Source: Methanobacteriota archaeon (GTDB taxonomy: Archaea; Thermoplasmatota; Poseidoniia; Poseidoniales; Poseidoniaceae). Taken from it: a stretch of DNA of 64,000 nucleotides. The translations under genes were made by a program, and so were the position numbers. This document shows, piece by piece, positions 437 through 61,458 of this stretch. The notes below the pieces were generated by a model that worked only from the letters and a program-made list of their open reading frames with translations, did no database searches and was not told the DNA's origin. The stretch is taken from contig PBGP02000006.1 in assembly GCA_002720095.2 (NCBI GenBank), positions 102,257-166,256 of the forward strand, in the 5' to 3' direction. Numbering within the stretch: the first letter of the stretch is position 1; each line of letters begins with the position of its first letter.

Positions 437-1660
437 GTGTCAGAAGTATTACGTGGTCCAAACGGATGTGTAGTTTTTATTTTCGTCGTCTTATTTCTAC
501 CTATTTTCATTCCTTTAGTCGGTGCATCTACAGGTTGGGAAGAAGATGGTTGGTTGGATGCAGATTGGTTTACGAAGGATGGAAGAATTGCTTCAGGAGA
601 TGAATTAGGATGTCAAGGAATGCCCACTTTAAATTTAGAGTTGATGCCCAGAACTACGGCTATGGAATGTAAGAAATATTTAATGGAGAGAACAAATGCA
701 TCTAGATGGAGTGATTATCCACTGTCTTTTGGGGTTGACATGAATGAAAATCCAAACTTTGATTCCAGTGATCATGAAGCTCTATTCAGTGAAGGTTTTG
801 CAGTTCACGGCTTGAATACTAATTACTTCAATACCGCATGGCATGATGCAAGTGATATTCCTGTTAACAATTCAGATTGGTGGAATTTAGGTTCAAGTGG
901 TAGTTTAGAACAGAAAATCACTTCGTTAGAAGATATAGTGGAACTCGCCGAAAACGGTGCGATGGTTAATTTACAATGGCAAGCTAGAATTGCTGATTTA
1001 AGAGTGCGTACTAATGGAGATTTAGTCGCATGGCTTGAATCACAAAACTCATGGTATACTACATGGGGGGAAGCATATTCATACGAGTTTCACAGAATTC
1101 AAGATGATTTTATATTCACTGATGATGGGTTAAATAATTGGAAACTAGAAAATTTGGGTCCGCCACTTGAATATCAAAATTCCTTAGCATGGAACGTACC
1201 TGTGACTAGGGGGATTGAAATTTCCAATAGTACTGTAGTTGAAGTAAGCACGGATTCGAAAGAATTTGTCGAATTATCTTTGGAAAATAAAACGTTGAAA
1301 CCAGGTTGGAGATATGATGGAAATATATTATGGATAACAATAAATAGCGGTGAAGAAGTTACAATAAAATTAGATAATTATTCGGAAGTTAAAATGCTTA
1401 CAGAATCTGCTAGATACTTCAACAATCATTCTTGGGCTTTAACTATTTCTGGACACCACACTATCGATTTATTCAAATGGTCAATGAAGTTTGATGAATC
1501 TCCGTTGGTTTTTACTTGGTTAGTCGAACCACAAGAAGCTGAAGATTTTAGTTGGATATTGATTTTGATTGCTGCGACTGCTGGTATTAGCGCAGTAATA
1601 TATTCCAAGTTACTTATAAGTAAAGATCGTGAAAAATGGGATTTTTTAGAATCAGAATAA
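437..1660 (+). CDS. hypothetical membrane-anchored extracellular protein
   Basis: GTG-initiated 407-aa ORF. N-terminal hydrophobic segment (CVVFIFVVLFLPIFIPLVGA) and C-terminal TM (FSWILILIAATAGISAVIY) with a short charged tail. Many N-x-S/T sequons. No family recognised. Confidence 0.5.
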   Translation: MSEVLRGPNGCVVFIFVVLFLPIFIPLVGASTGWEEDGWLDADWFTKDGRIASGDELGCQGMPTLNLELMPRTTAMECKKYLMERTNASRWSDYPLSFGVDMNENPNFDSSDHEALFSEGFAVHGLNTNYFNTAWHDASDIPVNNSDWWNLGSSGSLEQKITSLEDIVELAENGAMVNLQWQARIADLRVRTNGDLVAWLESQNSWYTTWGEAYSYEFHRIQDDFIFTDDGLNNWKLENLGPPLEYQNSLAWNVPVTRGIEISNSTVVEVSTDSKEFVELSLENKTLKPGWRYDGNILWITINSGEEVTIKLDNYSEVKMLTESARYFNNHSWALTISGHHTIDLFKWSMKFDESPLVFTWLVEPQEAEDFSWILILIAATAGISAVIYSKLLISKDREKWDFLESE

Positions 1661-4275: not shown

Positions 4276-7200
4276 ATGCAAATTGATGCTATTCGAAAAA
4301 AATCCAAAGCGACATTAATGATGTTAGTAATGTTATTTACAGTACTAGCTACAGTTGTTACAGGGAATGTCAACGCAGAACAAGGTAGGTCCGTTGGTGG
4401 TGAAGAAATTACTGTAACAGTACTCAGTGATCATTACAATGAATTGTCTTCCATTATGGTTGGAGCTACTGTAACGGGACTAAATCCTGGAATAGATTAT
4501 GATGTTTCATTGAAAATTTGTTATGATATGGCAAATGTAGGGAGTACATGGCAGAATCCTCCAAATGGATTTAATTACGATGGTTATCATTGTGATCAGC
4601 ATATGATTGATTCAGAAATTTATGATGCGGAAACTAATGAATTTCAGAACTATTTATGGGATGACATCATTGATGTTCCAGCAGGAGTAAACTCCTATGC
4701 TATAGCTAAAGCAATTGAATTTCAACGGGAATCTCATATTCACCCAGATGAACTTGGTTCTTTTACTTGTAATGATTCATCTTCAATCTCAGACTGGTGG
4801 TTAGTTAATGATGGAGTTAGTAACTGCTTAGATTCATCTGATGAAAATTTTGATTATGTAAATTGGCCAAAAGAAATTGTAGATGCGTCTTATTTCTACA
4901 ACTGTACTGATTGGAGTTATTACGGTTGGGATCAACCTAATCTTGAATATACTTGGTGGCACTATGATGGCTGTGGAAGAGGTTATTATGTGGTGGCAGA
5001 ACTACTTATTGGCGATTATGAACTTGCAGATTCTTTTTCTAATTCCTTTGCTGTAGGTTACAGAGGAAATGTCTATTTTGACACTTTAAGGGATGATACC
5101 ATATTGGTGGGTAATGATTATGAATTTTCTTTTTATGCATGTGAGTTGTTCTACTACATTTCAGAGCTGGTTGATTATGATTTAGATTATGAGGTTTATG
5201 ATTTAAGTGATCAGTCGCTCGTAGAATCTGGAACACACTCACAGATAGACTCACGTGATTTAGCGAGTTCTTGCTCTAACTGGGAAACAAAGGCGATTTC
5301 TGGGTTAAATGTTGGAAATTACAGTTTGGAAATAAAATTAAATCAAGAAGGGGTTTATCTAACTAACCACTACCAAGAATTTCAGGTAATTGATCTTGCT
5401 CTAACAGAGTCGGAAGATTTTATTGTATCCGTAGACGATAACTATTACGAAGAGAACCAACCTGTAATAATAACTATCGAGTTGGATAACTTAAATCCTG
5501 CAATTAACTACAGTGTGGATCTAACATTATGTCGTGATAGAAACTGGCATGCCTTCCCTTCAAACATTGATGGAATGATATATACAGACTTAAATTGTAA
5601 TAAGGCTTGGAGACCACAAACTTATAATGCTGAAAATGATTCTTATTCAGATGAATTATCAACATTGAGTGTTACAACAGGCTCTACCAATGCAGTCTTA
5701 AACGCTGAAATACTACAGAATTATTCTTCAGATATGAAAACGTGGCAATTAGGTCATTTTACATGTGACGACGGTTCAATCATTTCAAGTTGGGAGTTAG
5801 TAAATGACGGAAATAATGATTGTACAGATTCATCTGACGAAGGTTTTGATTATGCTGAATGGCCAGAAGAAAATATTTCTGCAACACTCTCTACTGCGGA
5901 GTTAGGGTACTATTTGATTGCCACACTTTCTGCAGAAAAATATAAAATTTCAGATAATATTTCCAACTCTTTTGCATCCGGAGAAAGAGGAGAAATTGGC
6001 TTTAGAGCATTACATCCTAATGGTGTACTAAATGGAATGGACTATGAATTTGAGTATACTTCAAAATGGTTGTTTAGATATATAGACACTATGGTAGATT
6101 ATGACTTAAACATTGAGATTACTGATTCAGATGGAAATCTCGTTGAATCATATTCTGATAATTCTCTTGATTCAAGATCACTGACAGCTTGGAAAATTCC
6201 TTGGCATACTTACACAGTAAGTGGATTGACACCTGGTGAGTATGTACTAACTATTGTTTTAGATATGGAATCTCGAGAGTTAGATACTTATTTCCAGGAA
6301 TTTAGTATTATTGATGAAACACTTTCTAATTTTGAGAGTTTGAGTATTTCAGCAGACTCAAATCATTATGGTAATCAAGATAATATTGAATTGGTATTTT
6401 CAATGGACAACTTGTTCCAAGGTACTAATTATAACTTAGATTGGAGGATTTGTAGAGATGTATTTGAGTTAGACCAATTCCCTCAAAATGCGAATGGCGA
6501 CATTTTCGAAAAATATGATTGTCCCAATCCACTTGGTTCTGGTCCTCAAGTATATGATGCCTCTACTGATTCGTACTCTAATGCTTGGGAATCAAGTATT
6601 TCAATTCCAGCAGGTTCAACTACACACAGTGAAATTATTTTGTTAGAATCAGAGATAATTTCAGATATTGACCCTTGGGAACTCGGAGAATTTTATTGTG
6701 ATAATGGAGAATCAGTATTGGATGGCTGGACATTAATCAATGATGGAAATTCAGACTGTACAGATTCATCTGATGAAAATTTTGATTATACAAATTGGCC
6801 GATTGAAATAATCAAAAATCCTATGTATGATTACGTTGAACAAGAAGGGTTCTATGTAATTGCTGAAGTTCAAGTTGCTGGATTTGAAGTCGTTGATGCT
6901 TTTAGTCCCTCTTTTGCAGTGGGTGAAATTGGTCACATAAGTTTCGATTCAGCTCATTCTAATGGTATTCTAGAAGGAATGGATTACAAATTCAATTTAG
7001 CAGGATGTGAATTATTTCGGTACATAAATGACTTAGTCAACTATGATATAGATTATCGTGTTTTTGATGATGATGGTTTGTTAATTGACTCGGGTAATCA
7101 TCAATTAATAGATTCTAGGGACAACACAAGTTATTGTTCAGAGAGTGAATTGATAATTATTGACAAGAATATTTTGACTGTCGACCAAGGAAAAAGAAAC

Positions 7201-8367
7201 AATGAATACAATGTTAAAATAAGCTTATCACTGTCGAATTCGCTAATAGACGAAATGGATTTTGAATTCACAGTTACAAATCCATTGGCTCCTAACGATG
7301 ATGCCACATTGGAAATAACCGCTATTTCAGGATTAAATGGGGTTGGAAGTGTTGAGATTACTATAGGTGAAATGACTGCAGGACAATATTATGAATTAGT
7401 ATACACCACATCAATCGCAGGTTCTCAATCAGAAGTGGGTAATTATTTCATTATCGCTCCACCTCTTGAAGATACTAAAGTAATCAGTTTCCCTCATCTT
7501 CCTGATGGTTTCTATTGTGTCAATGCAATACTTATGATTAACAATTGGGAGTTGACCTCTGCTTCAGATTGTTTTGTTCAAGAATCAACAGTCGACACAG
7601 ATCAAGACGGAATTAGAGACATAGACGATGGATGCCCCAATGAAGATCCAATACAAGGAACAGATTTAGATGGAGATGGTTGTATTGAATACACAGATAC
7701 AGATTTTGATGGATGGGATGATGTCGATGAGATTGCATGTGGAAGTAATGAACTTTGGGATGAGTCAATTCCGATTGATACGGATGGTGATGGGGTATGT
7801 GATGGGCAAGACCTAGATGATGATGGAGATGGAATTGATGATATCATTGAAATTGCGGAAGGTACAGATCCATTAGATGATCAGAGTAAGCCAAATTCCC
7901 CTCCAATTTGTGACATTTACTTTTCTATAGAATCAGATGGAGTAGTAATAAAGAACGAAAATGCTTTGATTTCAGGAGTTCCCTCTGGAGTTCCAACTGC
8001 ACCAGAGCAGTTGACTGTAACTCTACCTGTTGGTAATTATTACCTAATCGCACTATGTAGCGATCCAGAAGGTGATGTAGTCTCTGTTAATCTAAACGGA
8101 GAATTTGTAAATGGAACAGAGGCTAGAGTTGGTGCGTTGGTTGTAATGGCCCCAGATACATCAGAAACTGTGGAATTAGTACTGTCTTACGGAGACGGAA
8201 CACATTTCTTAGCCGCGATTGTAACAGTCAATTTAAACGCAACTTCAGGAATACCTGGTATTGTAGACGATGTTAGCGGTGAACCTGTTCCTGGATTTAC
8301 AGGAGTAATGACAATTCTATTGTTAATTGGTGTGGCCTCAATAAGAAGAAAAAATCAATCACTTTAG
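4276..8367 (+). CDS. giant secreted surface protein (1363 aa): signal/TM, three ~310-aa repeats, Ca-binding TSP3-like repeats, PGF-CTERM anchor signal
   Basis: N-terminal hydrophobic leader (ATLMMLVMLFTVLATVVTGNVNA). Triplicated repeat visible in the translation. D-x-D-x-D-G-x-x-D runs are present. The C-terminus PVPGFTGVMTILLLIGVASIRRKNQSL has PGF + TM + basic tail. Confidence 0.85.
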   Translation: MQIDAIRKKSKATLMMLVMLFTVLATVVTGNVNAEQGRSVGGEEITVTVLSDHYNELSSIMVGATVTGLNPGIDYDVSLKICYDMANVGSTWQNPPNGFNYDGYHCDQHMIDSEIYDAETNEFQNYLWDDIIDVPAGVNSYAIAKAIEFQRESHIHPDELGSFTCNDSSSISDWWLVNDGVSNCLDSSDENFDYVNWPKEIVDASYFYNCTDWSYYGWDQPNLEYTWWHYDGCGRGYYVVAELLIGDYELADSFSNSFAVGYRGNVYFDTLRDDTILVGNDYEFSFYACELFYYISELVDYDLDYEVYDLSDQSLVESGTHSQIDSRDLASSCSNWETKAISGLNVGNYSLEIKLNQEGVYLTNHYQEFQVIDLALTESEDFIVSVDDNYYEENQPVIITIELDNLNPAINYSVDLTLCRDRNWHAFPSNIDGMIYTDLNCNKAWRPQTYNAENDSYSDELSTLSVTTGSTNAVLNAEILQNYSSDMKTWQLGHFTCDDGSIISSWELVNDGNNDCTDSSDEGFDYAEWPEENISATLSTAELGYYLIATLSAEKYKISDNISNSFASGERGEIGFRALHPNGVLNGMDYEFEYTSKWLFRYIDTMVDYDLNIEITDSDGNLVESYSDNSLDSRSLTAWKIPWHTYTVSGLTPGEYVLTIVLDMESRELDTYFQEFSIIDETLSNFESLSISADSNHYGNQDNIELVFSMDNLFQGTNYNLDWRICRDVFELDQFPQNANGDIFEKYDCPNPLGSGPQVYDASTDSYSNAWESSISIPAGSTTHSEIILLESEIISDIDPWELGEFYCDNGESVLDGWTLINDGNSDCTDSSDENFDYTNWPIEIIKNPMYDYVEQEGFYVIAEVQVAGFEVVDAFSPSFAVGEIGHISFDSAHSNGILEGMDYKFNLAGCELFRYINDLVNYDIDYRVFDDDGLLIDSGNHQLIDSRDNTSYCSESELIIIDKNILTVDQGKRNNEYNVKISLSLSNSLIDEMDFEFTVTNPLAPNDDATLEITAISGLNGVGSVEITIGEMTAGQYYELVYTTSIAGSQSEVGNYFIIAPPLEDTKVISFPHLPDGFYCVNAILMINNWELTSASDCFVQESTVDTDQDGIRDIDDGCPNEDPIQGTDLDGDGCIEYTDTDFDGWDDVDEIACGSNELWDESIPIDTDGDGVCDGQDLDDDGDGIDDIIEIAEGTDPLDDQSKPNSPPICDIYFSIESDGVVIKNENALISGVPSGVPTAPEQLTVTLPVGNYYLIALCSDPEGDVVSVNLNGEFVNGTEARVGALVVMAPDTSETVELVLSYGDGTHFLAAIVTVNLNATSGIPGIVDDVSGEPVPGFTGVMTILLLIGVASIRRKNQSL
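4762..4845 (+). other. LDL-receptor class A-like calcium-cage motif, copy 1 (FTCNDSSSISDWWLVNDGVSNCLDSSDE)
   Basis: The D-G-x-x-(D/N)-C-x-D-S-S-D-E string matches the C-terminal half of the LDL-A consensus. Only 2 Cys are retained. Confidence 0.45.
5758..5841 (+). other. LDL-receptor class A-like calcium-cage motif, copy 2 (FTCDDGSIISSWELVNDGNNDCTDSSDE)
   Basis: Same motif as copy 1. This is the closest copy to the consensus D-G-x-x-D-C-x-D-x-S-D-E. Confidence 0.5.
6691..6777 (+). other. LDL-receptor class A-like calcium-cage motif, copy 3 (FYCDNGESVLDGWTLINDGNSDCTDSSDE)
   Basis: Same motif as copies 1 and 2. Confidence 0.5.
7591..7884 (+). other. thrombospondin type-3-like calcium-binding repeats
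   Basis: VDTDQDGIRDIDDGCPN, DLDGDGCIEYTDTDFDGWDDVDE, DTDGDGVCDGQDLDDDGDGIDD. These are repeated D-x-D-x-D-G-x-x-D-x-x-D(-x-C) units. Confidence 0.6.
8284..8364 (+). other. PGF-CTERM archaeal sorting signal (predicted archaeosortase substrate)
   Basis: PVPGFTGVMTILLLIGVASIRRKNQSL. A Pro-Gly-Phe tripeptide is followed immediately by one hydrophobic helix and an Arg/Lys cluster at the extreme C-terminus. Confidence 0.75.
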
Positions 8368-8431
8368 AATTCTTCAAAAAATAATGAGTAATGTATTCAA
8401 GCGTTAGTTCTAAGTCCCCCCTCTCATAGTA

Positions 8432-8815
8432 GTGCACATGCGGTTCGAATGTGATATGCTAGAAGAGTTCAATGAGGCTTTTGAGATACCTCATTCAGAA
8501 ACACCTACTGTTGGTGATGAAGAATTGGGGGAATTAAGGATTAGATTACTCGAGGAAGAGGTACAAGAGTATGCTGATGCTGTCAGAAAAGGAGACCTCT
8601 TAGAAATATTAGATGCTCTTGGAGACATAGCTTACATTTTAGCAGGAAGTGTGTTAAATCATGGTTTACAAAATGTTATTGATGATGCATTTTCTGAAAT
8701 ACATCGCTCCAATATGGCGAAATTAGTTGATGGTAAAGTTCTAAAAAGAGCTGACGGAAAAGTCGCAAAACCTAAGGATTGGTCACCTCCTAATCTAAAA
8801 CAGTTCTTACAATAG
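8432..8815 (+). CDS. MazG-like all-alpha nucleoside triphosphate pyrophosphohydrolase family protein
   Basis: LRIRLLEEEVQEYADAV...EILDALGDIAYIL...FSEIHRSNMAKL. The E-x2-E and D-x2-D metal-ligand helices are typical of small MazG/PRA-PH-like proteins. The start could be ATG 8438 instead of GTG 8432. Confidence 0.55.
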   Translation: MHMRFECDMLEEFNEAFEIPHSETPTVGDEELGELRIRLLEEEVQEYADAVRKGDLLEILDALGDIAYILAGSVLNHGLQNVIDDAFSEIHRSNMAKLVDGKVLKRADGKVAKPKDWSPPNLKQFLQ

Positions 8816-9367
8816 CTTTTCTGCTTCATCCTTAGTTAATTCAGTGAATGTCGCTTTTTTGTGCAATATTTTTGAATGCCCCATCGGATCAGAAAATATT
8901 AATGTCAATTCAGAGGTAAAACTTCTTTTTTTAGTTAAATCTAAAGACTCAAGTAGTGCATCACACTTCTTATACTCCTCAGAATTTTCTTGTTCATTAA
9001 ATTGATTTTTTGATATTTTTATGGCTTCAATGAATCTGTTTATGACTCCCTCTACATTCGAAACATATCCTGATGAGTGAGTACCAGGAAACACGGCCAG
9101 TTCTAACTCTGGAATTTCTACTGAACAATTTGACCCTCTGATTACTCTAGCGTCTAGATCATCGGAGGATGATATTTTCAGGGTCCAGATACCAGGGGTT
9201 TTATCTTCTGCCGGAATAAAATCAGTTTGTCTTAGTCCACAATTTGAGCAAAGAAGGGTAACCTGTGTATGTTCTCCGAAATAAGCAATTTCTGTAGTAT
9301 GAGCAATCATTTTTAAGCTGTTTTCATTACCACAAACGGGGCAAGAAGACTCAATATTGGATTCCAT
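8807..9367 (-). CDS. ZPR1-type zinc-finger protein
   Basis: CPVCGNE...TEIAYFGEHTQVTLLCSNCGLRQTDF, followed by a beta-rich domain. This is the archaeal ZPR1-related architecture. Confidence 0.65.
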   Translation of the reverse strand: MESNIESSCPVCGNENSLKMIAHTTEIAYFGEHTQVTLLCSNCGLRQTDFIPAEDKTPGIWTLKISSSDDLDARVIRGSNCSVEIPELELAVFPGTHSSGYVSNVEGVINRFIEAIKISKNQFNEQENSEEYKKCDALLESLDLTKKRSFTSELTLIFSDPMGHSKILHKKATFTELTKDEAEKLL

Positions 9368-9376
9368 AATCTGCCC

Positions 9377-9925
9377 TCAATTTAAGAAAGCCTCGTCTTC
9401 CAAACCTTTCATACCTTTACATGATGGGGGTAATATGAGTAGCCTAGTCTCAGATAACTGCAATATCTCTCCGTTTAAATCACTAATAATGAAATCATTC
9501 AATTTTTGTATGATTTTATTGAGTATTTCATCTTCTGCTAAAATATCTTTTAAATCAACAACGCTTATGTCTCCATCTGAGGCCCAATCGAAAAGTTGGT
9601 AAACCCCATTTAAACCTAATAAATTCGCACGGTGGATAACAAACCCATTAATTGATGAGATATTAGCATCTGGATATAATCTTTCTAAATCATGATAAAT
9701 TACACTATTTTTTTTTACTATATTTTTCTTAGAATTGAGACTTGGCATCACTAAACTCTCTATTGGTTTGTTAGAAAAAGGTTTAACAGACGGATTTTTA
9801 TCATGTTCATCAGAATCAAATAAGATATTTACCTCTTCTTCTCCAAATGGAAGTTTAGATTGACTTTGGTCATCCACGTTGCTAGGGGGATGTTGGTATT
9901 CTTCAATTCTTTTGTCAAAAAACAC
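9377..9925 (-). CDS. possible SepF-like cell-division protein (weak)
   Basis: The C-terminal ~80 aa (DGDISVVDLKDILAEDEILNKIIQKLNDFIISDLNGEILQLSETRLLILPP) follows the SepF/DUF552 pattern (...V.L..L......R..DF..G......G.I..........P). The N-terminal half is low-complexity. GTG start. Confidence 0.4.
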   Translation of the reverse strand: MFFDKRIEEYQHPPSNVDDQSQSKLPFGEEEVNILFDSDEHDKNPSVKPFSNKPIESLVMPSLNSKKNIVKKNSVIYHDLERLYPDANISSINGFVIHRANLLGLNGVYQLFDWASDGDISVVDLKDILAEDEILNKIIQKLNDFIISDLNGEILQLSETRLLILPPSCKGMKGLEDEAFLN

Positions 9926-10031
9926 TTAAAAGCTACATTTCCAACTCAATTTATTCGTCGGGTTGATAAACTACCTTCATACAGGGTATCATGAGCAACG
10001 TCAATTAAGAGGCTGTTTGTGGTGAGTTAAT

Positions 10032-10661
10032 ATGGAATCTACAATGGATAAATTGAAAACGGGTACTAGTACATTGGGAATATGCTACAACGGCGGAGTT
10101 GTTGTTGGAGCAGATCACCGTGCTACGATGGGCCATTTTATAGCTAACAAAAGCGTACAAAAACTGTTTCAAATCGGTCCAAATCTAGCCTTAACCACTG
10201 CAGGTCTGGTCGGACATGCACAAAGTTTGTCTAGAACTTTGAATGCTGAGACAACATTATTTCAGCTTAAGAGAGGTCATCCAATGACAGTAAAAGGTGC
10301 TGCTACTTTGACTGCCAACATCTTACTAGGTAGACCTTATTGGGTGCAATTACTTATTGTTGGAGTTGATGATTCAGGGCCAAGTGTGTACAGTATAGAT
10401 GGTGCAGGAGGCTCTATTCCTGATGTTTATTGTGCAACAGGATCTGGATCACCGTATATGTATGGTGTACTGGAAGATGGATTCAAGAAAGGAATGCAAA
10501 AAAATGATGCAATTAAGTTAGCTGCTCGGGCATTACTTGCTTCTGGTCAGAGAGATGCTGCATCAGGTAATGGAATGGATTTGGCATACATTACCGAGTC
10601 AGAAGGATTTGTCCAACTAACTGATGAAGAAGTTGATAAAGTTATTAAATCATTAAAATAA
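10032..10661 (+). CDS. psmB: proteasome subunit beta
   Basis: Short propeptide followed by the catalytic Thr motif (KTGTSTLGICYNGGVVVGADHRATMG). Ntn-hydrolase length of 209 aa. Confidence 0.9.
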   Translation: MESTMDKLKTGTSTLGICYNGGVVVGADHRATMGHFIANKSVQKLFQIGPNLALTTAGLVGHAQSLSRTLNAETTLFQLKRGHPMTVKGAATLTANILLGRPYWVQLLIVGVDDSGPSVYSIDGAGGSIPDVYCATGSGSPYMYGVLEDGFKKGMQKNDAIKLAARALLASGQRDAASGNGMDLAYITESEGFVQLTDEEVDKVIKSLK

Positions 10662-10727
10662 ACTCCCGGCTAGCCCGCCTTTAGGGCTTACTCTTTTGAG
10701 TGGGTATAGATTGGGGAAGGTGATAAT

Positions 10728-12632
10728 TTGAGACTTAGTTTTCATGAGGTAAAAAATAAAATAGCAAAATTAGTTCCCAAGGATATAGATTATTCAGTAG
10801 ATTTAGAGGCAGCAACTGTTGCAATAATTACATCTCAACCTGACAGATTTGGAAGTGGGAGTGGGCTAACTGGGGAAATAGCCAAAGAGATAAAGCGTAG
10901 AGTAGTTATTAGACCAGATAAAAAAATAATGATGTCTGAGGAAGAGTCTGTTGGTCACATAAAATCTATTATTCCAGAAGATGCAGGAGTAAATGACATT
11001 TATTTTGATCCTTGTTTTTCTGAAGTAATACTTACCTGTGATGACCCAGGAACAGCAGTTGGAAGGAGAGGAGAAAATATTAACAAGCTAAGAGATAAGA
11101 TAGGTTGGATTGTTAAAGTTGAAAGAACGCCTTCTCTGAGAAGTAAGACTGTGGTTGATATTAGAGGTTTTAGAAAAACTCTAGCCGAGGAAAGAAGAAA
11201 ATTACTCAGAGATTTTGGAAGAAATATTTTCAGGCCTAAACTGTCGGGGTCATCTTGGGCAAGATTAACTGCCTTAGGTTCTTACAGAGAAGTTGGAAGA
11301 GCTTGTCATTTAATTACGACTAATGAATCTAGAGTGATGATTGATGTTGGAGCTAATATAGCTGATACAGCGAACCATTTACCTTTTTTCAATGCGCCTG
11401 AAGCATTGCCATTGGAAAAAATTGATGCAGTAGTATTGACTCATGCTCACCTAGATCATGCAGGAATGTTACCCTTATTGTTCAAATATGGATACAAAGG
11501 ACCAGTTTATTGCACACCTCCTACGAGAGATATGATGCTAATTTTGCAATCAGATTATCTGAAAGTCGCGGGGATGGAGGGGAAATCTCCTCCATACGAG
11601 ATGGAACACGTTCGAGAAGCCATGAAACATGTGATAGACGTAAATTGGAAAGAAACTACTGATATTACCCCAGATATAAAAATGACTATGACCAACTCTG
11701 GGCATATTATCGGATCTTCTGCTTGCCATTTTCACATTGGAGAAGGTAAACATAATCTAGTATTTTCAGGTGATCAAAAATATGAAAAAAGCTGGCTTTT
11801 TGACGCAGCAAACTCTAAATTCCCTCGTTGTGAAACTCTAGTACTCGAGTCAACGTATGGTGCTCAAGGAGATTTCCAGCCATCTCGTTTAGAAGCTACT
11901 TCTGAATTGCAGGAAATGATTAAAAGAACAATTGGAAGGAATGGAAAAATGATACTTCCTGTTTTTGCTGTCGGTAGGAGTCAAGAAGTTATGATTGCAA
12001 TAGATGAATTATTTAGAAATGGAGAAATGGAACCTTGCACTGTATACTTAGATGGTATGATACAAGAAGCAACGGCAATACATGCATCACATCCGGAGTA
12101 TTTAACAAGAGATTTAAGGAATGCTATACTTAAAAATGATGAAAACAATCCCTTTAGCGCTCCTTGGTTTAGAACTGTACAAGGAAGAGAAATGAGAGAA
12201 TCAATATTATTAGACCCCACTCCGTGTATAGTTTTAGCTACTAGCGGTATGTTAACAGGGGGGCCAGTAATGACATATTTCAGACATTGGTCAGCTAATG
12301 AGAGAAATGCACTGTGTTTCGTAGGTTATCAAGCAGAAGGATCAATTGGAAGGAGATTGCAAAAAGGTTTCAGTGACATTCAGATGTTTTATGAAGGTGA
12401 AACGATAAACTTAGAAGTTAATTGTGAGTATATAACTATTGATGGATTTAGTGGGCATTCTGATAGAAAACAACTACTTGATTTTGTAGATCAATTAAAC
12501 CCTAAACCTCACGCTATTGTGTGTCATCATGGTGATTATAGAAAGTGTAGTGAATTAGGTAGAGCATTGAGAGAGAAATATAATGTCAGGTCATATTCAC
12601 CAAAAAATCTAGAGACAATTAGATTGTTTTAA
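10728..12632 (+). CDS. aCPSF1: KH-domain beta-CASP metallo-beta-lactamase ribonuclease (archaeal transcription-termination/RNA-processing factor)
   Basis: 634 aa. N-terminal KH-like region. H-x-H-x-D-H motif (THAHLDHAG). Beta-CASP C-terminal region ending ...DGFSGHSD...VCHHGD. Sits next to psmB, a pairing I recall from other Euryarchaeota. TTG start. Confidence 0.9.
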   Translation: MRLSFHEVKNKIAKLVPKDIDYSVDLEAATVAIITSQPDRFGSGSGLTGEIAKEIKRRVVIRPDKKIMMSEEESVGHIKSIIPEDAGVNDIYFDPCFSEVILTCDDPGTAVGRRGENINKLRDKIGWIVKVERTPSLRSKTVVDIRGFRKTLAEERRKLLRDFGRNIFRPKLSGSSWARLTALGSYREVGRACHLITTNESRVMIDVGANIADTANHLPFFNAPEALPLEKIDAVVLTHAHLDHAGMLPLLFKYGYKGPVYCTPPTRDMMLILQSDYLKVAGMEGKSPPYEMEHVREAMKHVIDVNWKETTDITPDIKMTMTNSGHIIGSSACHFHIGEGKHNLVFSGDQKYEKSWLFDAANSKFPRCETLVLESTYGAQGDFQPSRLEATSELQEMIKRTIGRNGKMILPVFAVGRSQEVMIAIDELFRNGEMEPCTVYLDGMIQEATAIHASHPEYLTRDLRNAILKNDENNPFSAPWFRTVQGREMRESILLDPTPCIVLATSGMLTGGPVMTYFRHWSANERNALCFVGYQAEGSIGRRLQKGFSDIQMFYEGETINLEVNCEYITIDGFSGHSDRKQLLDFVDQLNPKPHAIVCHHGDYRKCSELGRALREKYNVRSYSPKNLETIRLF

Positions 12633-32177: not shown

Positions 32178-32272
32178 ATACCTCCGAGTATAATTCAGGT
32201 GATATTAATTACTAATCAAAAAAGTTAGATATCGTAAAAGGTTTGACAAACCTTCACTATACTCGATGTTTG

Positions 32273-35200
32273 ATGGCGGAGGGGCACATAAGACAAACTG
32301 TCGCAGCCAAATTAATTATTTTGATAATAATTCTGTTTCCATTTACTGTGATTAATTTTAGTGATGCAATTCTAAACGAAGGCATTAGTAAAAACCAGAT
32401 GACAAATGCAAGTAATAATGAAATTATACAAATTGATACATATCCTAATGGTTTTTCAGATGATTTCAATTTAAAAATTCCAGATGGTAATGCATTGGAT
32501 TTACTAGAATTTGACCTAATGCCAGATGTGGATGTTTCATCTGTAAATCATGTATGGGATTCAACATCAGATTGGAGAAGTTCTTATGCAGAATATGAAA
32601 ATGTAGATTATAATTTGACAGGTTTAAGGATTAATTCGCCATCGCCTTCTTGGGATTTTGAAAATTCGAATCATGGATGGACTTTGGATGCAAATGGTGG
32701 TTGGGCATGGGGGGTTGATTCAGCAGGTTCTCACGGGGGCTCTAAAGCAATTTACACCTATTTGGGACAATATCCTAATCAGATGTCTACGACTTATTAT
32801 GCAACCTCACCCAGTGTAGATTGTTCTTCATGTAATGGGGGTTGGAATGTTAATTTTTGGAAGCAACTTGGTGTAGAAAGTAGTTCTTGGGATCACGCAT
32901 ATTTTCAAGTTAAAGGAATCAATGGTTGGGTTACTATTTGGGAAAATTCAGGATCTGTAAATGATGTAAGTTATAGCTTACAATCATATCGTGTTGATTC
33001 TTACATTGCAGGGAATAGTGACTTTAGAATTCGTTTTGGTTTAGGGCCAACTGATTTCAGTGTTACATATGATGGATGGAATATAGACGATGTTTCAATT
33101 ACTCCAGTAAGTGGCTCTGGAGTTGGTGCAGCTAAGGTAGAAGGTTCAGGTGATGCAAATTGGACAACTGCTGAAATAGGTACGGGAAAATACCACTCCG
33201 TAGATTCTGGCCCATATGGACTTCTTAATATCGTTGCAGATATCCCTTTCAATACAGGATTAGATTGGACAATAATTGATTCTAATTCTGATAAACCTGT
33301 ATTAGGGTACGAACAAAGGACAGAACTTTTTTCAGATTTGGGGAGAATTGACTGGGAAAAGCATTCAAGTATAAAAATAAAAATTCACTTATGGAGTGAT
33401 AGCTTAGAATCTCCTGAGTTAAAATCAATAATTCTTGGTAATGTTTGGAAATTCGATTTTAATCAAGAACCTAATTCCTCAGATTGGATTGGAGATGTAA
33501 ACTTAATTTCAGGTAATTTCGAAGGAAGTGGTGATTTAGTTTTTCCAAAGATTTTTTCAACGAAGCCAATAATTTCATTAAATTATGAAGTTATTGTTGT
33601 AGGTTCAGGACAACTACAGTTTAACTCAGATGAATCTTCTAATTGGAACAATATTTCAACTAGCGGAATAATTAATTTAGATAACTATTCCAAAGAGATA
33701 CAATTTAGATGGAAGTCTAATTCACAGAATTGGTCATTTCAATCTATAGAAATAGAATTTCAGACAGGAATATTGCCTCTATCTCCATTTATCGATATCG
33801 GAAAAGACGGTAAAGATGAATGGAATTTATCTATGGGTGAAATTGGGTTTTGGGGTTCACAAGATCGATGGTCCGATGGGTCAATTTCTAAATTAGTGAC
33901 TCTGAGCTCAGGCACACCTCAATATGTAGATTACTGGCTCCCATCTGATAAAGTGATTAATTTTTGTATTGATCTTACTCCCGAATCAGGACAAATTACG
34001 GAATTAGGGGCGGATTTAAGAGTAGGATCACAAATAATTTCAGAAATAGAAATCCTCAATAATATTGGAGTTTATAGACACTGTTTGAATAATTCAGAAC
34101 TTGATATATTAAATCAGAACATCTCAACAAATTCTAATATTTGGGAATCAAATGGGCAAGGTTTTGTATTAGGAAAAATAAAATTGGTAGGTATTTCTCA
34201 GAGAATTCAACTTAGTGGTTTAGACATTCTTTATCATCCGAAAGTTGAATTTAGAGAGAATTATGATTCTGCATTTATTCGGACAATTAATAATTTCTTA
34301 AGTGATACAATGATTACAAATGGTGAAAAAGTTATTTCAATACCAATATTTTCTGAATTGACATCTACTTTGTTGGTTGAGATAATAGATTTACATTCTA
34401 CTTCTGGATTAATAACTGAAGAATTAACATTAATTAATTCTACAACTCCATTAGTTTCTTCTGAAATATGGCTTGAATTAGAATCAAAACATTCGGTATC
34501 TGAAGGCACAATTAAATCTATAGAATATGACTTTACATCAAAGTTAAATCAAATTAATTTTGTTTACGAACTTGATGATGTGAACAAAACTATTTCAGAT
34601 TCAAGTGATTTAATTGAAGTAGAGAAACATAGCTATTTTGAATCAAATTCAGATAACACGTCAAAACTTAGATTTAGAATTAACCCCATTTGGGATGATG
34701 ATTTTGAACTTGAATTACAAGTAAGAATTGTCAGAAATGACGGAATAAAAGGAGTTCCAGAAAAAATTTTAATTGGTTCAAATACATACCAATCCATTGA
34801 AAATGATATTGAAATCAAATCTTGGTCAGTTACAAATGATTTAGGCAAATTAATTCCAGAGGGAATGCCATATTTGAAATCTGGGTCTAACATAACAATA
34901 GAAGTTAAATTGGGATTTGAGAATATTTCTTCTTCTTTACATTATCCCAAATCTGGAGATTTAGAAGTATTTGTCCTCGAAAATGGATTTGAAATTGGGA
35001 GAACAGATAAATTAACCAATGGGCGAGTTAGTTTTGTAAGATTAATACCATTTGGACCAGGTGATTTAAATTATGAAATAAAATTAAATTTAAAAAATTC
35101 TCAAATAGATACGACTAAAATACAGATAAATAGAACTTTCATAGCGGATTCATTAGCTCCAAAATTAATTTCAACTAATCTTGAGAGGTATGATTATCGT

Positions 35201-37356: not shown

Positions 37357-37651
37357 GAGGGAGTAGAGAGTAAGCCCCTTTCTGTTCACTTTTCAGTTGA
37401 CCGCATTCAACTATGCGTCCTACCCTTCCCTAAGCGTGCAACCTCAATGGGATTGTTTGGACTTGCTCCGATGAGGATGTTCGTTTCAGCAAATGTTGAG
37501 CAATCTCGTCTTTCCAGATTCATAGTACACACTCAAATTCGTTCGTTTCTAATACATTGCCAGCCATTCCTGACTCCAGATAGGTCATCTTACACTTTGG
37601 AGAGGGGACTTTCCTCAGGGTCTAACCCTGTCAGCGGTCCTTCTACTCCCT
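37357..37651 (-). ncRNA. rnpB: RNase P RNA (archaeal type A-like)
   Basis: The minus-strand reading starts GAGGGAGTAGAAGGACCGCTGACAGGGTTAGACCCTGAGGAAAGTCCCCTC and ends ...GTGAACAGAAAGGGGCTTACTCTCTACTCCCTC. It contains the universal CR-I GAGGAAAGUCC and the CR-IV/V ACAGAA-N-GGCUUA. The termini pair (GGGAGTAGA/TCTACTCCC = P1). Locally GC-richer than flanking DNA. Confidence 0.85.
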
Positions 37652-60558: not shown

Positions 60559-61458
60559 TCATTTCCATTCGTGTCTGCAAGTAACACATCTCAATTTCCC
60601 AGATCCAGAACGTTCAATTTCTGAGCTTCCACATAAGTCACATTCACCTTCAATTTTCTTTGAATTATGGGTTCTAGTTTTCGTCATAGAATTATTTTGT
60701 TTTTGTACCCTACTTTTTCTTTTGTTCGAATTATTTAAGTAAGATTTTTTTTCATTTTTATTTCTGAATTCATCTAATAGTGGCTCCTTGATAGTTTTAC
60801 CTGCCACTACTATAGGATGAGTCCTGTAACGGATTAATTTGATGTGCCTATCAATAATTCTCCCTAGTGGCGCCGACATGCAAATATATGCAAAAATCCA
60901 AACAGGGATAAACCACATAACCTTGTCATCAATTAACCTCCACTTGGGGTTCCATGGAAGGCTTAGATAATCTACTCTAAAGTTTTCTACTGATGAGGCC
61001 AACCATGCAAAAATAGCTATAATAAATATCATTGTAAACATCATAGGCTTAAAAGCTCCCATTTGCACAGACATCTGGTCGGGTAGCATTTTCTCTCTCA
61101 TTCGCATTGCAGTATCAAGAGCGACCTTATTTTGGTCTAATCTAGCTTCATTCGCCATTTTTCCAATCTGTCTTTGTCTATGAGAAATATGCGCTTGTGC
61201 TACAGGATCCATGAAAAAAGAGCGCAAAATCGTATTGACAACCATACTTGCGGAACCAAGTGTTAATACCATCAAGATTAATGAATTTTCAGGTACGATT
61301 GGACTTAATACAGGATCTGCATAATCCATTAAAGAATTTCTAACACTGGGGTTAATGACTAACATCATCATCATGATCATCATAAGAAGAAGTAGCATCA
61401 TTTGTCCACCACCTTGAGGCATTTCACCGCCTTGACCGCCTGCGCTATCCCCTGTCAT
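60559..61458 (-). CDS. DUF106/EMC3-TMCO1-like membrane protein (archaeal Oxa1/YidC-superfamily insertase candidate) with C-terminal zinc-ribbon extension
   Basis: TM1, then a basic coiled-coil (HRQRQIGKMANEARLDQNKVALDTAMRMREKM), then KPMMFTMIFIIAIFAWL. This matches the DUF106 layout. The position directly upstream of cmk is the classic archaeal synteny. The C-terminus has CDLCGSSE...LRCVTCRHEW. Start ambiguous (61458 or 61485). Confidence 0.6.
   Translation of the reverse strand: MTGDSAGGQGGEMPQGGGQMMLLLLMMIMMMMLVINPSVRNSLMDYADPVLSPIVPENSLILMVLTLGSASMVVNTILRSFFMDPVAQAHISHRQRQIGKMANEARLDQNKVALDTAMRMREKMLPDQMSVQMGAFKPMMFTMIFIIAIFAWLASSVENFRVDYLSLPWNPKWRLIDDKVMWFIPVWIFAYICMSAPLGRIIDRHIKLIRYRTHPIVVAGKTIKEPLLDEFRNKNEKKSYLNNSNKRKSRVQKQNNSMTKTRTHNSKKIEGECDLCGSSEIERSGSGKLRCVTCRHEWK

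What the first reader, a model, noticed from the sequence alone, without database searches (positions are those of the whole stretch)
4276..8367. Giant PGF-CTERM surface protein with three repeats, each carrying a cysteine-depleted LDL-receptor-class-A-like calcium cage
Seen in the sequence:
- The 1363-aa ORF contains three ~310-aa tandem repeats.
- Each repeat has one copy of F-x-C-x-(D/N)-x-(S/E)-x-(I/V)-x3-W-x-L-(V/I)-N-D-G-x-(S/N)-(N/D)-C-x-D-S-S-D-E-x-F-D-Y-x-x-W-P.
- The three copies are FTCNDSSSISDWWLVNDGVSNCLDSSDENFDYVNWP, FTCDDGSIISSWELVNDGNNDCTDSSDEGFDYAEWP and FYCDNGESVLDGWTLINDGNSDCTDSSDENFDYTNWP.

Established knowledge: the D-G-x-x-D-C-x-D-x-S-D-E string is the acidic calcium-cage half of the LDL-receptor class A module. 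That module is overwhelmingly a metazoan extracellular domain and normally has six cysteines.

What differs here:
- Only two of the six cysteines survive. The Cys of W-x-C-D-G is replaced and the spacing is slightly longer.
- The module is embedded in a much larger repeat.

The repeats are followed by thrombospondin-type-3-like D-x-D-x-D-G-x-x-D units and a textbook PGF-CTERM anchor.

Inference: this is a calcium-dependent, lipid-anchored adhesin. Its ligand-binding module may be an archaeal relative or a convergent copy of LDL-A.
Basis: partly seen in the sequence, partly recalled or inferred. Interest (0 to 1): 0.7.

Follow-up and report, generated by a model that had tools for sequence, protein, structure and literature searches.

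The report
Archaeal surface protein with LDL-A-like modules
A marine planktonic archaeon (Marine Group II, Poseidoniales) encodes a large, very acidic surface protein in which three big repeats each carry a small calcium-cage module related to the animal LDL-receptor class A module, and this one-disulfide form of the module proves to be common in the surface proteins of that archaeal order.

Summary
ORF 4276-8367 (+) encodes 1363 aa. It has a signal peptide, three diverged repeats of about 310-340 aa (35-38% identical), five DxDxDG units and a C-terminal PGF + helix + RRK tail.

An AlphaFold2 model splits each repeat into beta-sandwich, 40-aa module, beta-sandwich.

The module is a true relative of LDL-A, not a look-alike.
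- Profiles built from it hit only LDL-A-type chains in the PDB.
- Orthologues pass Pfam's Ldl_recept_a cut-off; the window protein itself just misses (21.8 vs 24.1 bits).
- The modelled module superposes on solved LDL-A modules at 0.6-1.0 A over about 30 residues.
- The two cysteines kept are C2 and C5, which pair with each other in canonical LDL-A.

Asn in place of C4 and the longer spacing also occur in the first LDL-A-like subdomain of eukaryotic glucosidase II beta, the best-scoring solved module. The one-disulfide "VNDG" module occurs 288 times in 57 low-cysteine proteins. Most of them carry a PGF-type tail, and every one that carries a taxon name is from Poseidoniales or Thermoplasmatota.

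Calcium binding, lipid anchoring and adhesion remain inferences. Verdict: new variant of a known kind, moderate interest.

The parts
4276..8367 (+). Complete gene for a 1363-aa secreted, very acidic surface protein (D+E 246, K+R 49)
   Evidence: ORF list; composition; ten full-length orthologues at 57-79% identity; conserved position between the TrpRS/TyrRS-type and MazG-like genes.
4276..4377 (+). Probable Sec signal peptide, aa 1-34: basic n-region RKKSK, hydrophobic core LMMLVMLFTVLATVV, VNA before E35
   Evidence: Read from the sequence; no signal-peptide predictor was available. It is the least conserved segment among orthologues (0.36).
4381..5400 (+). Repeat 1 (aa 36-375): beta-sandwich, LDL-A-like module, beta-sandwich. 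It carries an extra Cys/Trp-rich insert of about 28 aa after the module
   Evidence: BLASTP between repeats and MAFFT alignment; hmmsearch domain envelopes.
5401..6330 (+). Repeat 2 (aa 376-685), the one modelled: sandwich A is repeat residues 1-112, the module 113-155, sandwich B 156-304
   Evidence: AlphaFold2 with 25 repeat copies: pLDDT 89.7, pTM 0.77. Foldseek gives tandem Ig-like/beta-sandwich hits only.
6331..7275 (+). Repeat 3 (aa 686-1000)
4762..4869 (+). LDL-A-like module 1, aa 163-198 (C165, C184; NDG 178-180; SSDE 187-190). The cage Asp before C184 is Asn
5758..5865 (+). LDL-A-like module 2, aa 495-530 (C497, C516; NDG 510-512; SSDE 519-522)
   Evidence: Best Pfam Ldl_recept_a stretch at aa 493-522. 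Module model pLDDT 82; all of the top 50 Foldseek hits are LDL-A-type modules. Ungapped alignment with glucosidase II beta subdomain 1, 15 of 31 identical.
6691..6801 (+). LDL-A-like module 3, aa 806-842 (C808, C828; NDG 822-824; SSDE 831-834); one residue longer than modules 1 and 2
7276..7584 (+). Post-repeat domain, aa 1001-1103; not modelled, no family match
   Evidence: No Pfam or NCBIfam hit; conserved among orthologues (0.68).
7585..7890 (+). Thrombospondin-type-3-like acidic region, aa 1104-1205, with five D-x-D-x-[DN]-G units and a ...EGTDPLDDQS ending
   Evidence: Motif scan. TSP3_bac scores 16.1 bits (E 0.01), below the cut-off of 25. The same model passes in the related protein P0012 at 33.1 bits.
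7891..8250 (+). Second post-repeat domain, aa 1206-1325; not modelled
   Evidence: No family hit; conserved among orthologues (0.68).
8284..8364 (+). PGF-CTERM-like sorting signal, aa 1337-1363: PV-PGF-TGVMTILLLIGVASI-RRK-NQSL
   Evidence: Tripartite architecture read from the sequence. The window copy fails the curated models. 29 of 32 C-termini of related proteins match TIGR04126 at E<=1, best 1e-9.

Best explanation
The gene encodes a Sec-exported, strongly acidic cell-surface protein of a Marine Group II (Poseidoniales) archaeon. It is held at the membrane by a PGF-CTERM-type C-terminal signal.

The ectodomain is a chain of beta-sandwich (Ig-like) domains. Each of three ancient super-repeats of about 310 aa has a 40-residue module wedged between two sandwiches. 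That module is homologous to the LDL-receptor class A / glucosidase-II-beta type calcium module.

The module keeps the C2-C5 disulfide and the acidic cage positions (N-D-G-x-x-D-C-x-D-x-S-D-E). It has lost the C1-C3 and C4-C6 disulfides. In seawater (about 10 mM Ca2+, textbook value) each module most likely binds one Ca2+, which would then be the main thing holding the module folded.

Together with five thrombospondin-type-3-like DxDxDG sites near the membrane, this would give a calcium-stiffened, negatively charged stalk. Its LDL-A-like acidic pockets would be available to dock basic groups on particles, other cells or proteins.

Shown here: the gene, the repeats, the domain layout, homology to LDL-A, taxonomic confinement, and that the family is widespread in the order. 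Inferred: Ca2+ binding, C-terminal processing and lipidation, and the adhesive or ligand-capture role.
For: Gene and repeats:
- ORF and repeat structure.
- Archaeal window: archaeal RNase P RNA.
- All relatives in 185,579 species genomes come from Poseidoniales, Thermoplasmatota or 'Euryarchaeota' MAGs.

Homology to LDL-A:
- Ldl_recept_a scores 21.8 bits in three stretches for the window protein. Orthologues score 30.3 and 36.5 bits against a cut-off of 24.1. Tandem-module relatives score 190-195 bits.
- A profile of the 31 embedded modules returns only LDL-A-type chains from the PDB: LRP2 3e-40, LDLR 3e-13, and the single module 1ldl_A at 1.4e-6.
- The mixed profile gives LRP2 1e-76 and 1ldl_A 5e-9.

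Fold:
- The repeat model is confident (pLDDT 89.7, pTM 0.77), with the module between two sandwiches.
- The module model (pLDDT 82) has LDL-A-type modules as all of its top 50 Foldseek hits. Against 1ajj, the Ca-bound LDLR module 5, rmsd is 0.9 A over 29 columns at 45% identity.

Cage conservation:
- C, N-D-G, C and D-E are invariant across 48 modules, and the Asp before C5 is kept in at least 90%.
- Across 288 modules of 57 low-Cys proteins, 287 have exactly two Cys, and Asn occupies the C4 position in 91%. The positions the search pattern left free have much the same preferences as in 1159 canonical modules: Asp 76 vs 87% and Gly 79 vs 60% in C-x-D-G, Ser 58 vs 75% before D-E.

Nearest solved module and anchor:
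- Glucosidase II beta subdomain 1 is the best-scoring single solved module (42.3 and 28.5 bits). It aligns ungapped with V-N-D at the same place.
- Anchor: PGF + helix + RRK at the extreme C-terminus. 29 of 32 related C-termini hit TIGR04126. IMG calls one relative a 'PGF-CTERM protein'.
- Rinke et al. 2019 (PMC6461757) already invoke thrombospondin-type genes as evidence for adhesion in this order.
Against: - No model coordinates were available, so convergence of the acidic side chains on one metal site was not measured.
- AlphaFold2 may simply reproduce the LDL-A fold it has learned from the motif. Foldseek E-values for the 53-residue query are weak (0.009-0.26).
- The window protein itself is below the curated cut-offs of Ldl_recept_a, PRKCSH-like, TSP3_bac and PGF-CTERM.
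- Module 1 has Asn instead of one cage Asp.
- No archaeosortase gene was found among the multi-pass membrane ORFs of the 64-kb window.
- Nothing here speaks to a ligand or to expression level.
- In glucosidase II beta the equivalent subdomains serve subunit contact rather than ligand capture (my recollection, not checked here). Presence of a module therefore does not prove a receptor role.
Confidence: 0.65

Rival explanations
1. It is the S-layer, or another envelope-lattice, glycoprotein of this Poseidoniales clade. On this reading the Ca2+ sites serve lattice assembly and rigidity rather than adhesion to external partners.
For: - Architecture typical of archaeal S-layer glycoproteins: signal peptide, a chain of Ig-like beta-sandwiches, very acidic, C-terminal PGF-type anchor.
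- 23 of 32 related C-termini also touch the haloarchaeal ArtA-dependent S-layer glycoprotein model, through the tail only.
- It is single-copy, of constant length, and sits in a conserved housekeeping neighbourhood in six MAGs.
- It evolves faster than its neighbours, about 60% against 81-95% identity, as exposed envelope proteins do.
Against: - The three-repeat protein is confined to a handful of species-level genomes (L001-L007).
- Other Poseidoniales carry differently built proteins with the same module, so no order-wide orthologue is evident.
- N-glycosylation sequons are not enriched: 12 observed against 14.5 expected.
- There are no expression data.
Confidence: 0.2
2. It is a capture receptor for dissolved or particulate proteins and peptides. 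The LDL-A-like pockets would bind lysine-rich ligands as in metazoan LDL-receptor-family proteins, feeding the proteolytic, heterotrophic lifestyle ascribed to Marine Group II.
For: - The acidic residues that in LDL-A both hold Ca2+ and dock ligand lysines are conserved, and an invariant Trp sits upstream. The lysine-docking role is established knowledge for LDL-A, recalled from memory of the RAP-LA3-4 complex 2fcw.
- 2fcw_B is the top Foldseek hit for the module model.
- Related proteins carry up to about 24 matched stretches of the module, as multivalent receptors do.
Against: - No transporter, protease or other uptake gene is linked to the gene; its neighbours are housekeeping genes.
- Relative to canonical LDL-A, the invariant Trp is displaced by two residues in the embedded form.
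- No ligand evidence of any kind.
Confidence: 0.1
3. The resemblance to LDL-A is convergent: a short acidic DxSDE-type motif in an unrelated loop, with no shared ancestry and possibly no calcium site.
For: - The window protein alone is sub-threshold for Ldl_recept_a (21.8 against 24.1 bits).
- Four of the six hallmark cysteines are missing.
- The match is only about 30 residues long, in a composition rich in D, S and G.
Against: - The match spans F-x-C to S-D-E, not just the acidic string.
- Profile searches of 177,635 PDB sequences return nothing but LDL-A-type modules.
- The tandem form has the same modal C2-to-DG spacing as 1159 canonical modules.
- The retained Cys are a canonical disulfide pair.
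- An ungapped 15/31 alignment to glucosidase II beta includes V-N-D.
- The model superposes on solved modules at under 1 A.
Confidence: 0.04
4. The triplication is an assembly artefact.
For: None found.
Against: - The repeats are 35-38% identical at protein level.
- No DNA tandem repeat is detected.
- The same three-repeat layout occurs in ten orthologues from independent assemblies, in syntenic loci.
Confidence: 0.01

Closest known systems
LDL-receptor class A module (Pfam PF00057 Ldl_recept_a; complement-type repeat) of LDLR, VLDLR, LRP1/2, enteropeptidase, CD320 and others
   Same: - About 40 residues with the F-x-C ... D-G-x-x-D-C-x-D-x-S-D-E register.
- Same acidic cage positions.
- Same modal spacing in the archaeal tandem form.
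- C2 and C5 are retained.
- The predicted fold superposes at 0.6-1.0 A over 29-31 residues.
- Reciprocal profile hits.
   Different: - One disulfide instead of three: C1, C3, C4 and C6 are absent and C4 is Asn.
- The embedded form is 1-2 residues longer between C2 and N-D-G.
- It carries a conserved F-D-Y-x-x-W-P extension after S-D-E in place of C6.
- It occurs singly, between two beta-sandwiches of a 310-aa super-repeat, in an archaeon.
- The window protein scores 21.8 bits, below the 24.1 cut-off.
N-terminal LDL-A-like subdomains of the glucosidase II beta subunit (PRKCSH; Pfam PF12999 PRKCSH-like; PDB 8d43_B, 5f0e_B)
   Same: - V-N-D replaces the W-x-C-D of canonical LDL-A.
- Same C2-to-N spacing as the window modules.
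- Ungapped alignment [31 protein letters not shown] / FTCDDGSIISSWELVNDGNNDCTDSSDEGFD, 15 of 31 identical.
- It is the best-scoring single solved module for both archaeal profiles.
- The tandem archaeal form shares ...SDEP.
   Different: - Glucosidase II beta keeps an extra Cys (Y-C-D-C) and a C-terminal Cys, so it has more than one disulfide.
- It has two fused subdomains followed by other domains in an ER-resident eukaryotic protein.
- The PRKCSH-like model scores only 18 bits on the window protein against a cut-off of 34.9. It passes in P0012 and P0013.
Tandem 'VNDG' module proteins of Poseidoniales (e.g. P0012-P0017, and the 1358-aa gene in L009 at 7430-11506)
   Same: - Same one-disulfide module.
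- Same order of archaea.
- Thrombospondin-type-3-like acidic repeats.
- PGF-type C-terminal anchor.
- Similar overall size.
   Different: - Modules are head-to-tail, with 18-19 found by pattern in P0012 and P0013 and up to 24 matched stretches in P0014, at exactly the canonical spacing. In the window protein there is one per 310-aa super-repeat.
- The TSP3-like region is N-terminal rather than membrane-proximal.
- There are no sandwich-module-sandwich units.
PGF-CTERM / archaeosortase A substrates, such as the Haloferax volcanii S-layer glycoprotein
   Same: - Extreme C-terminal PGF + hydrophobic helix + basic cluster.
- Ig-like multidomain acidic ectodomain.
- Relatives match TIGR04126.
   Different: - The window copy does not reach any curated cut-off.
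- No Thr/Ser-rich linker precedes the signal.
- The archaeosortase was not located.
- There is no sequence similarity outside the tail.
Thrombospondin type 3 / bacterial TSP3 repeats (PF18884)
   Same: D-x-D-x-D-G-x-x-D units, one followed by C-P and one by ...EGTDPLDDQS, as in the TSP3_bac consensus.
   Different: Only five units. The score is 16.1 bits, below the cut-off of 25.

Membership tests
LDL-receptor class A (PF00057) | Match to the family profile at the curated gathering score (24.1 bits) | tested here: not met
   Window protein: 21.8 bits, E 2.3e-4, three stretches. Orthologues P0003 and P0004 score 30.3 and 36.5 bits and pass; P0012 and P0013 score 190-195 bits.
LDL-receptor class A (PF00057) | Reciprocal profile similarity: a profile of the modules retrieves LDL-A modules and nothing else | tested here: met
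   A4 (embedded modules only): LRP2 3e-40, LDLR 3e-13, 1ldl_A 1.4e-6. All of the 60 matches listed (of 73 at E<=1) are LDL-A-type chains. A3 gives LRP2 1e-76.
LDL-receptor class A (PF00057) | Six cysteines forming C1-C3, C2-C5 and C4-C6 (connectivity from established knowledge) | tested here: not met
   Two Cys per module, at the C2 and C5 positions; C4 is Asn. 287 of 288 modules in the low-Cys family have exactly two Cys.
LDL-receptor class A (PF00057) | Acidic calcium-cage residues D...D...D-E in the C-terminal lobe | tested here: met
   N-D-G, D-C and S-D-E are invariant or at least 90% conserved in 48 modules. The exception is Asn for the second Asp in window module 1.
LDL-receptor class A (PF00057) | LDL-A fold | tested here: met
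   Module model pLDDT 82.4. All of the top 50 Foldseek PDB hits are LDL-A-type modules, rmsd 0.6-1.0 A over 29-31 columns, probabilities mostly 0.9-1.0, but E-values only 0.009-0.26. This is a predicted structure, not an experimental one.
LDL-receptor class A (PF00057) | Binds one Ca2+ per module | not testable with these tools
   No model coordinates and no metal-aware prediction were available. Needs biophysics or a structure.
Glucosidase II beta N-terminal domain (PF12999 PRKCSH-like) | Match at the curated score (34.9 bits) | tested here: not met
   Window protein 18 bits; P0003 31.9 bits; P0012 43.1 and P0013 68.4 bits pass.
Glucosidase II beta N-terminal domain (PF12999 PRKCSH-like) | V-N-D in place of the fourth Cys, with the same C2-to-N spacing | tested here: met
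   Sequence of 8d43_B residues 30-116 verified. Ungapped alignment, 15 of 31 identical, and the best single-module score.
Glucosidase II beta N-terminal domain (PF12999 PRKCSH-like) | Two fused subdomains with additional Cys (Y-C-D-C ... C), in the context of the eukaryotic beta subunit | tested here: not met
   Modules are single, lack the extra Cys, and are flanked by beta-sandwiches. No other glucosidase-II-beta-related Pfam hit.
PGF-CTERM sorting signal (TIGR04126 / PF18204) | Match to the curated model | tested here: not met
   No PGF-CTERM hit for the full protein or for its last 50-60 residues. Heimdall-CTERM reaches 15.2-15.4 bits against a cut-off of 24. 29 of 32 related C-termini match TIGR04126 at E<=1, best 1e-9.
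PGF-CTERM sorting signal (TIGR04126 / PF18204) | Tripartite signal at the extreme C-terminus: PGF, hydrophobic helix, basic cluster | tested here: met
   ...EPV-PGF-TGVMTILLLIGVASI-RRK-NQSL*.
PGF-CTERM sorting signal (TIGR04126 / PF18204) | Cognate archaeosortase A in the same genome | tested here: inconclusive
   Five ORFs with at least 3 predicted TM segments were found. The four scanned for this purpose are MMPL/RND-type (two), EMC3/TMCO1-like, and one with no family. The fifth, the 1711-aa ORF, has no Pfam family. The rest of the genome is not in the window.
Thrombospondin type 3 repeats (PF18884 TSP3_bac) | Match at the curated score (25 bits) | tested here: not met
   16.1 bits, E 0.01, two stretches.
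Thrombospondin type 3 repeats (PF18884 TSP3_bac) | Repeated D-x-D-x-D-G-x-x-D calcium-binding motif | tested here: met
   Five D-x-D-x-[DN]-G units at aa 1107-1186, four with the full extension.

The most novel reading that the evidence does not exclude
The one-disulfide 'V-N-D-G' LDL-A module would be the signature binding module of the Poseidoniales surface proteome. It would be the closest prokaryotic sister of the eukaryotic glucosidase-II-beta-type LDL-A subdomain. On this reading the LDL-A calcium cage is not a metazoan invention. It would be an older module shared, by descent or by transfer between planktonic archaea and eukaryotes, with an ER protein thought to be present throughout eukaryotes. 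Calcium, rather than disulfides, would be its ancestral stabiliser.
Probability: 0.15. Interest if true: 0.7.

Novelty: new variant of a known kind. Interest (0 to 1): 0.45.

Why it matters
Marine Group II archaea are the most abundant archaea in ocean surface waters (Rinke et al. 2019). From my own knowledge they are still uncultured. How they attach to particles and phytoplankton is argued only from gene lists.

- **A concrete, testable family.** This work shows that many of their large PGF-tailed surface proteins are built from a reduced, one-disulfide version of the LDL-A calcium module: 288 copies in 57 representative proteins. That gives a defined domain for expression, Ca2+ titration, ligand screens and metaproteomic tracking.
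- **A natural experiment for protein scientists.** It shows how far the LDL-A fold can be stripped of disulfides while the calcium cage is kept.
- **A pointer for domain evolution.** The similarity points to glucosidase II beta rather than to metazoan receptors as the nearest eukaryotic form.
- **A limit on the novelty.** The domain is recognised by Pfam, and NCBI's pipeline already labels some members as LDL-A repeat proteins.

Tried and rejected
- **Assembly artefact.** Rejected.
- **Convergence.** Judged unlikely.
- **Foldseek with the whole repeat model.** It gave only generic tandem beta-sandwich matches: transglutaminase C-terminal barrels, protein 4.2, RbmA, complement MG domains. E was about 1e-8 but TM-scores were 0.2-0.3. 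This says Ig-like and nothing more specific.
- **Second word-indexed protein search, with the repeat profile.** It returned only two fragments, so it did not widen the family.
- **NCBIfam on the full protein.** Nothing useful.
- **Literature.** Searches for LDL-A in archaea or Marine Group II found nothing relevant. The only pertinent statement is that Poseidoniales carry thrombospondin-type genes taken as adhesion markers. The structural papers on glucosidase II beta are not held in the library. Its calcium binding and its subunit-contact role are therefore cited from memory only.
- **Metal-site geometry.** It could not be measured because model coordinates are not exposed.
- **Archaeosortase in the window.** None found among the multi-pass membrane ORFs.
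- **Conservation of the modules among orthologues.** They are not markedly more conserved than the sandwiches (0.65-0.67 against 0.40-0.74). They are much the best conserved part between the three paralogous repeats (63% against about 37%).

Full report
**1. The observation**

The ORF is real. It runs 4276..8367 on the + strand, has an ATG start and encodes 1363 aa. Its product is very acidic, with D+E 246 against K+R 49.

The N-terminus reads as a Sec signal peptide: RKKSK, a hydrophobic core, then VNA before E35. This is my reading of the sequence; no predictor was available.

Splitting the protein and comparing the pieces gives three tandem repeats, at aa about 36-375, 376-685 and 686-1000. 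They are 35-38% identical pairwise, with E from 3e-56 to 2e-61.

The consensus as written matches only the third literally, because the other two are one residue shorter.

Each repeat has four conserved cysteines. Two lie in the small module and two in the domain before it.

Nothing else in the 64-kb window carries the module or a PGF-type tail in a credible ORF.

The triplication is not an assembly artefact.
- The copies are far too diverged.
- Tandem Repeats Finder sees no DNA repeat.
- Ten full-length orthologues (57-79% identical, 1318-1379 aa) from independent assemblies all contain three repeats.

**2. Organism and neighbourhood**

The window is archaeal: it holds an archaeal RNase P RNA at 37359-37650. 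Its G+C is about 34%.

A pattern scan of one genome for each of 185,579 species found the full repeat only in Poseidoniales or 'Euryarchaeota/Methanobacteriota' MAGs (L001-L007). It found the small module alone in 17 further loci. Thirteen of these are labelled Poseidoniales or Thermoplasmatota, and four carry only broader labels (Methanobacteriota archaeon or 'uncultured euryarchaeote').

The gene sits among housekeeping genes. Upstream are a saccharopine-dehydrogenase-like gene and a class-I Trp/Tyr tRNA synthetase. Downstream are a MazG-like pyrophosphohydrolase, ZPR1, a proteasome subunit and FttA/aCPSF1. This order is kept in six MAGs.

The surface gene is about 60% identical between these genomes. 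Its neighbours are mostly 81-95% identical, ranging from 61 to 95%. That faster divergence is the usual behaviour of exposed proteins.

**3. Anatomy of a repeat**

An AlphaFold2 model of repeat 2, built with 25 repeat copies, is confident: pLDDT 89.7, pTM 0.77. It has three parts:
- a beta-sandwich (repeat residues 1-112);
- a 40-residue segment with almost no regular secondary structure (113-155);
- a second, larger beta-sandwich (156-304).

Foldseek against the PDB finds only generic tandem Ig-like assemblies, with low TM-scores. The sandwiches therefore carry no specific functional label.

**4. The small module**

*Sequence evidence in both directions.* Pfam's Ldl_recept_a finds three stretches in the window protein but totals 21.8 bits, just under the 24.1-bit cut-off. 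Two orthologues pass at 30.3 and 36.5 bits.

In the reverse direction, a profile built only from the 31 embedded modules of this protein family was searched against all PDB sequences. It returned nothing but LDL-A-type chains: LRP2 3e-40, VLDLR 8e-17, LDLR 3e-13, glucosidase II beta about 1e-7, and the single 48-residue module 1ldl_A at 1.4e-6.

*Fold evidence.* A model of the isolated module (pLDDT 82.4) has LDL-A-type modules as all of its top 50 Foldseek hits. Typical rmsd is 0.6-1.0 A over 29-31 columns. Against the calcium-bound LDLR module 5 (1ajj) it is 0.9 A at 45% identity. The E-values are weak (0.009-0.26), as expected for so short a query.

*Which cysteines survive.* The alignments place the module's two cysteines at LDL-A positions C2 and C5. 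By established knowledge of the fold, these two form a disulfide with each other. C1/C3 and C4/C6 are lost as pairs. This pairwise-coherent loss argues for descent from, or a common origin with, the six-Cys module rather than chance resemblance.

*Cage positions.* The D of N-D-G, the D before C5 and the D-E of S-D-E are invariant or at least 90% conserved over 48 modules. Window module 1 has Asn at the second position.

**5. The module is a family, and its oddities are not unique**

The first protein search also returned two different proteins, P0012 and P0013. A pattern scan finds 18-19 head-to-tail copies of F-x-C-x-D-G-x-x-I-P-x-x-x-V-N-D-G-x-x-D-C-x-D-G-S-D-E-P in each. These proteins score 190-195 bits on Ldl_recept_a.

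An exhaustive HMMER search of 1.84 billion representative proteins with the module profile found 7156 proteins at E<=1e-3.

The 149 newly listed representatives, pooled with the 13 proteins, split cleanly into two classes.
- **High-cysteine proteins.** There are 102 of them, with the canonical C at the C4 position.
- **Low-cysteine proteins.** There are 57, with N at that position. Of these, 41 end in a PGF-type tail (P[GA] plus a hydrophobic residue, a hydrophobic helix and a basic residue).

In the low-cysteine class I counted 288 modules. Of these, 287 have exactly two Cys, and Asn occupies the C4 position in 91%. The modal C2-to-DG spacing equals that of 1159 canonical modules. Note that the D/E-E, the C5 and two D/N positions were fixed by my search pattern.

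Where names exist, these proteins come from Poseidoniales or Thermoplasmatota MAGs. Most are 'hypothetical'. A few are already called 'low-density lipoprotein receptor class A repeat-containing protein' by NCBI, including a partial relative of this very super-repeat.

The nearest solved module is not a metazoan receptor. It is the first LDL-A-like subdomain of glucosidase II beta. Its sequence (8d43_B residues 30-116, verified) reads [31 protein letters not shown].

That sequence aligns without a gap to window module 2, FTCDDGSIISSWELVNDGNNDCTDSSDEGFD, with 15 of 31 residues identical. V-N-D occupies the place of W-x-C-D. It is the top-scoring single module for both archaeal profiles: 42.3 against at most 29.6 bits, and 28.5 against at most 25.7 bits.

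What is specific to the archaeal form:
- reduction to a single disulfide;
- in this protein, the F-D-Y-x-x-W-P extension after S-D-E;
- in this protein, placement between two sandwiches.

**6. The rest of the protein**

After the repeats come the following parts.
- An unassigned domain (aa 1001-1103).
- A region with five D-x-D-x-[DN]-G units (aa 1107-1186). It resembles bacterial TSP3 repeats but scores 16.1 bits against a cut-off of 25.
- Another unassigned domain (aa 1206-1325).
- The tail PV-PGF-TGVMTILLLIGVASI-RRK-NQSL.

By architecture the tail is a PGF-CTERM signal. By profile the window copy fails, with Heimdall-CTERM at 15.4 bits as the best match. In contrast, 29 of 32 C-termini of orthologues and paralogues match TIGR04126, best E 1e-9.

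No archaeosortase was found among the window's multi-pass membrane ORFs. The rest of the genome is out of reach. Processing and lipid attachment by archaeosortase A are established for Haloferax (my knowledge), not for this order.

**7. How it most likely works**

*Shown here:* a secreted, C-terminally anchored, acidic chain of beta-sandwiches carrying three LDL-A-type modules and five DxDxDG sites.

*Inferred:*
- Each module binds one Ca2+. With only one disulfide, the module would depend on that Ca2+ to stay folded.
- In seawater the sites would be occupied (about 10 mM Ca2+, textbook value), giving a stiff, negatively charged stalk.
- The acidic pockets beside the cage could dock basic groups, as LDL-A modules do with ligand lysines.

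I rate the structural and calcium reading as likely, with 0.65 for the whole statement.

The specific role is open. Adhesin is my first choice, given the literature's case for particle attachment in this order. The two alternatives are an S-layer or envelope lattice protein (0.2) and a protein-capture receptor (0.1).

**8. Verdict**

The LDL-A relationship is solid and better explained by homology than by convergence, while calcium dependence, lipid anchoring and adhesion are untested.

This is a new variant of a known kind. It is a one-disulfide LDL-A module expanded in Marine Group II surface proteins, here embedded in a novel super-repeat. Pfam and automated annotation already half-recognise it, but I found no description of it in the literature I could search.

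Noticed in passing
window 32216-37348 (+): A second very large ORF (about 1690-1711 aa) with an N-terminal hydrophobic segment. It is rich in Ser (12%) and Asn (8.7%), has almost no Cys and matches no Pfam family at E<=1e-3. It is probably another uncharacterised surface protein. It ends 10 bases before the RNase P RNA gene on the opposite strand.
   Followed up: partly
window 37702-40383 (-) and 48289-50841 (+): Two large MMPL/RND-superfamily membrane proteins (10-12 predicted helices, with sterol-sensing-domain-like and SecD/F-like matches) lie within 11 kb of each other.
   Followed up: no
window 60562-61485 (-): A 308-aa membrane protein matches EMC3/TMCO1-like (PF01956, 55 bits), the archaeal relative of the YidC/Oxa1/EMC3 insertases.
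   Followed up: no
window 437-1657 (+) and 9380-9925 (-): Two ORFs (407 and 182 aa) have no Pfam family, yet they are conserved in sequence (63-70% identity) and position in five (407-aa ORF) and five (182-aa ORF) related loci.
   Followed up: partly
L003 11800-12861, L004 12859-13861, L005 12976-13971: In three of the syntenic genomes about 1 kb of extra sequence separates the surface-protein gene from the MazG-like gene. In the window, L001 and L002 the two genes are under 70 bases apart. This may be an inserted small gene.
   Followed up: no
L009 7430-11506 (+) with MazG-like at 11608-11961; also L011, L017, L023: In Poseidoniaceae genomes a 1358-aa protein of the tandem-module type also lies next to a MazG-like gene (64-66% identical to the window's), although the other neighbours differ (UvrB, SDR, UbiA/UbiD-like). 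This may be a remnant of positional orthology between the two architectures, or coincidence.
   Followed up: partly
P0133, P0134, P0139, P0153, P0154 (representative-library hits): These are short proteins (246-367 aa) of unknown origin with modules such as [34 protein letters not shown]. The modules keep C4 and C6 but seem to lack C3. They may be intermediate, possibly bacterial, forms of the LDL-A module. No taxonomy was available.
   Followed up: partly
P0005, repeat 2 (aa about 495-545): One orthologue has a remodelled module 2 (FECMNEDGDYVGYIDNWWMVNDGNADCPLGEDEGFDY), with an insertion after C2 and P-L-G-E-D-E in place of x-D-x-S-D-E. One non-cage Asp is lost while N-D-G, D-C and D-E are kept.
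   Followed up: no
window 4381-5400 (repeat 1, aa about 199-235): Repeat 1 alone carries an extra insert of about 28 residues rich in Trp, Tyr and Cys (YFYNCTDWSYYGWDQPNLEYTWWHYDGCGRG) directly after the module. It is conserved in all orthologues and adds two cysteines (C210, C233).
   Followed up: no
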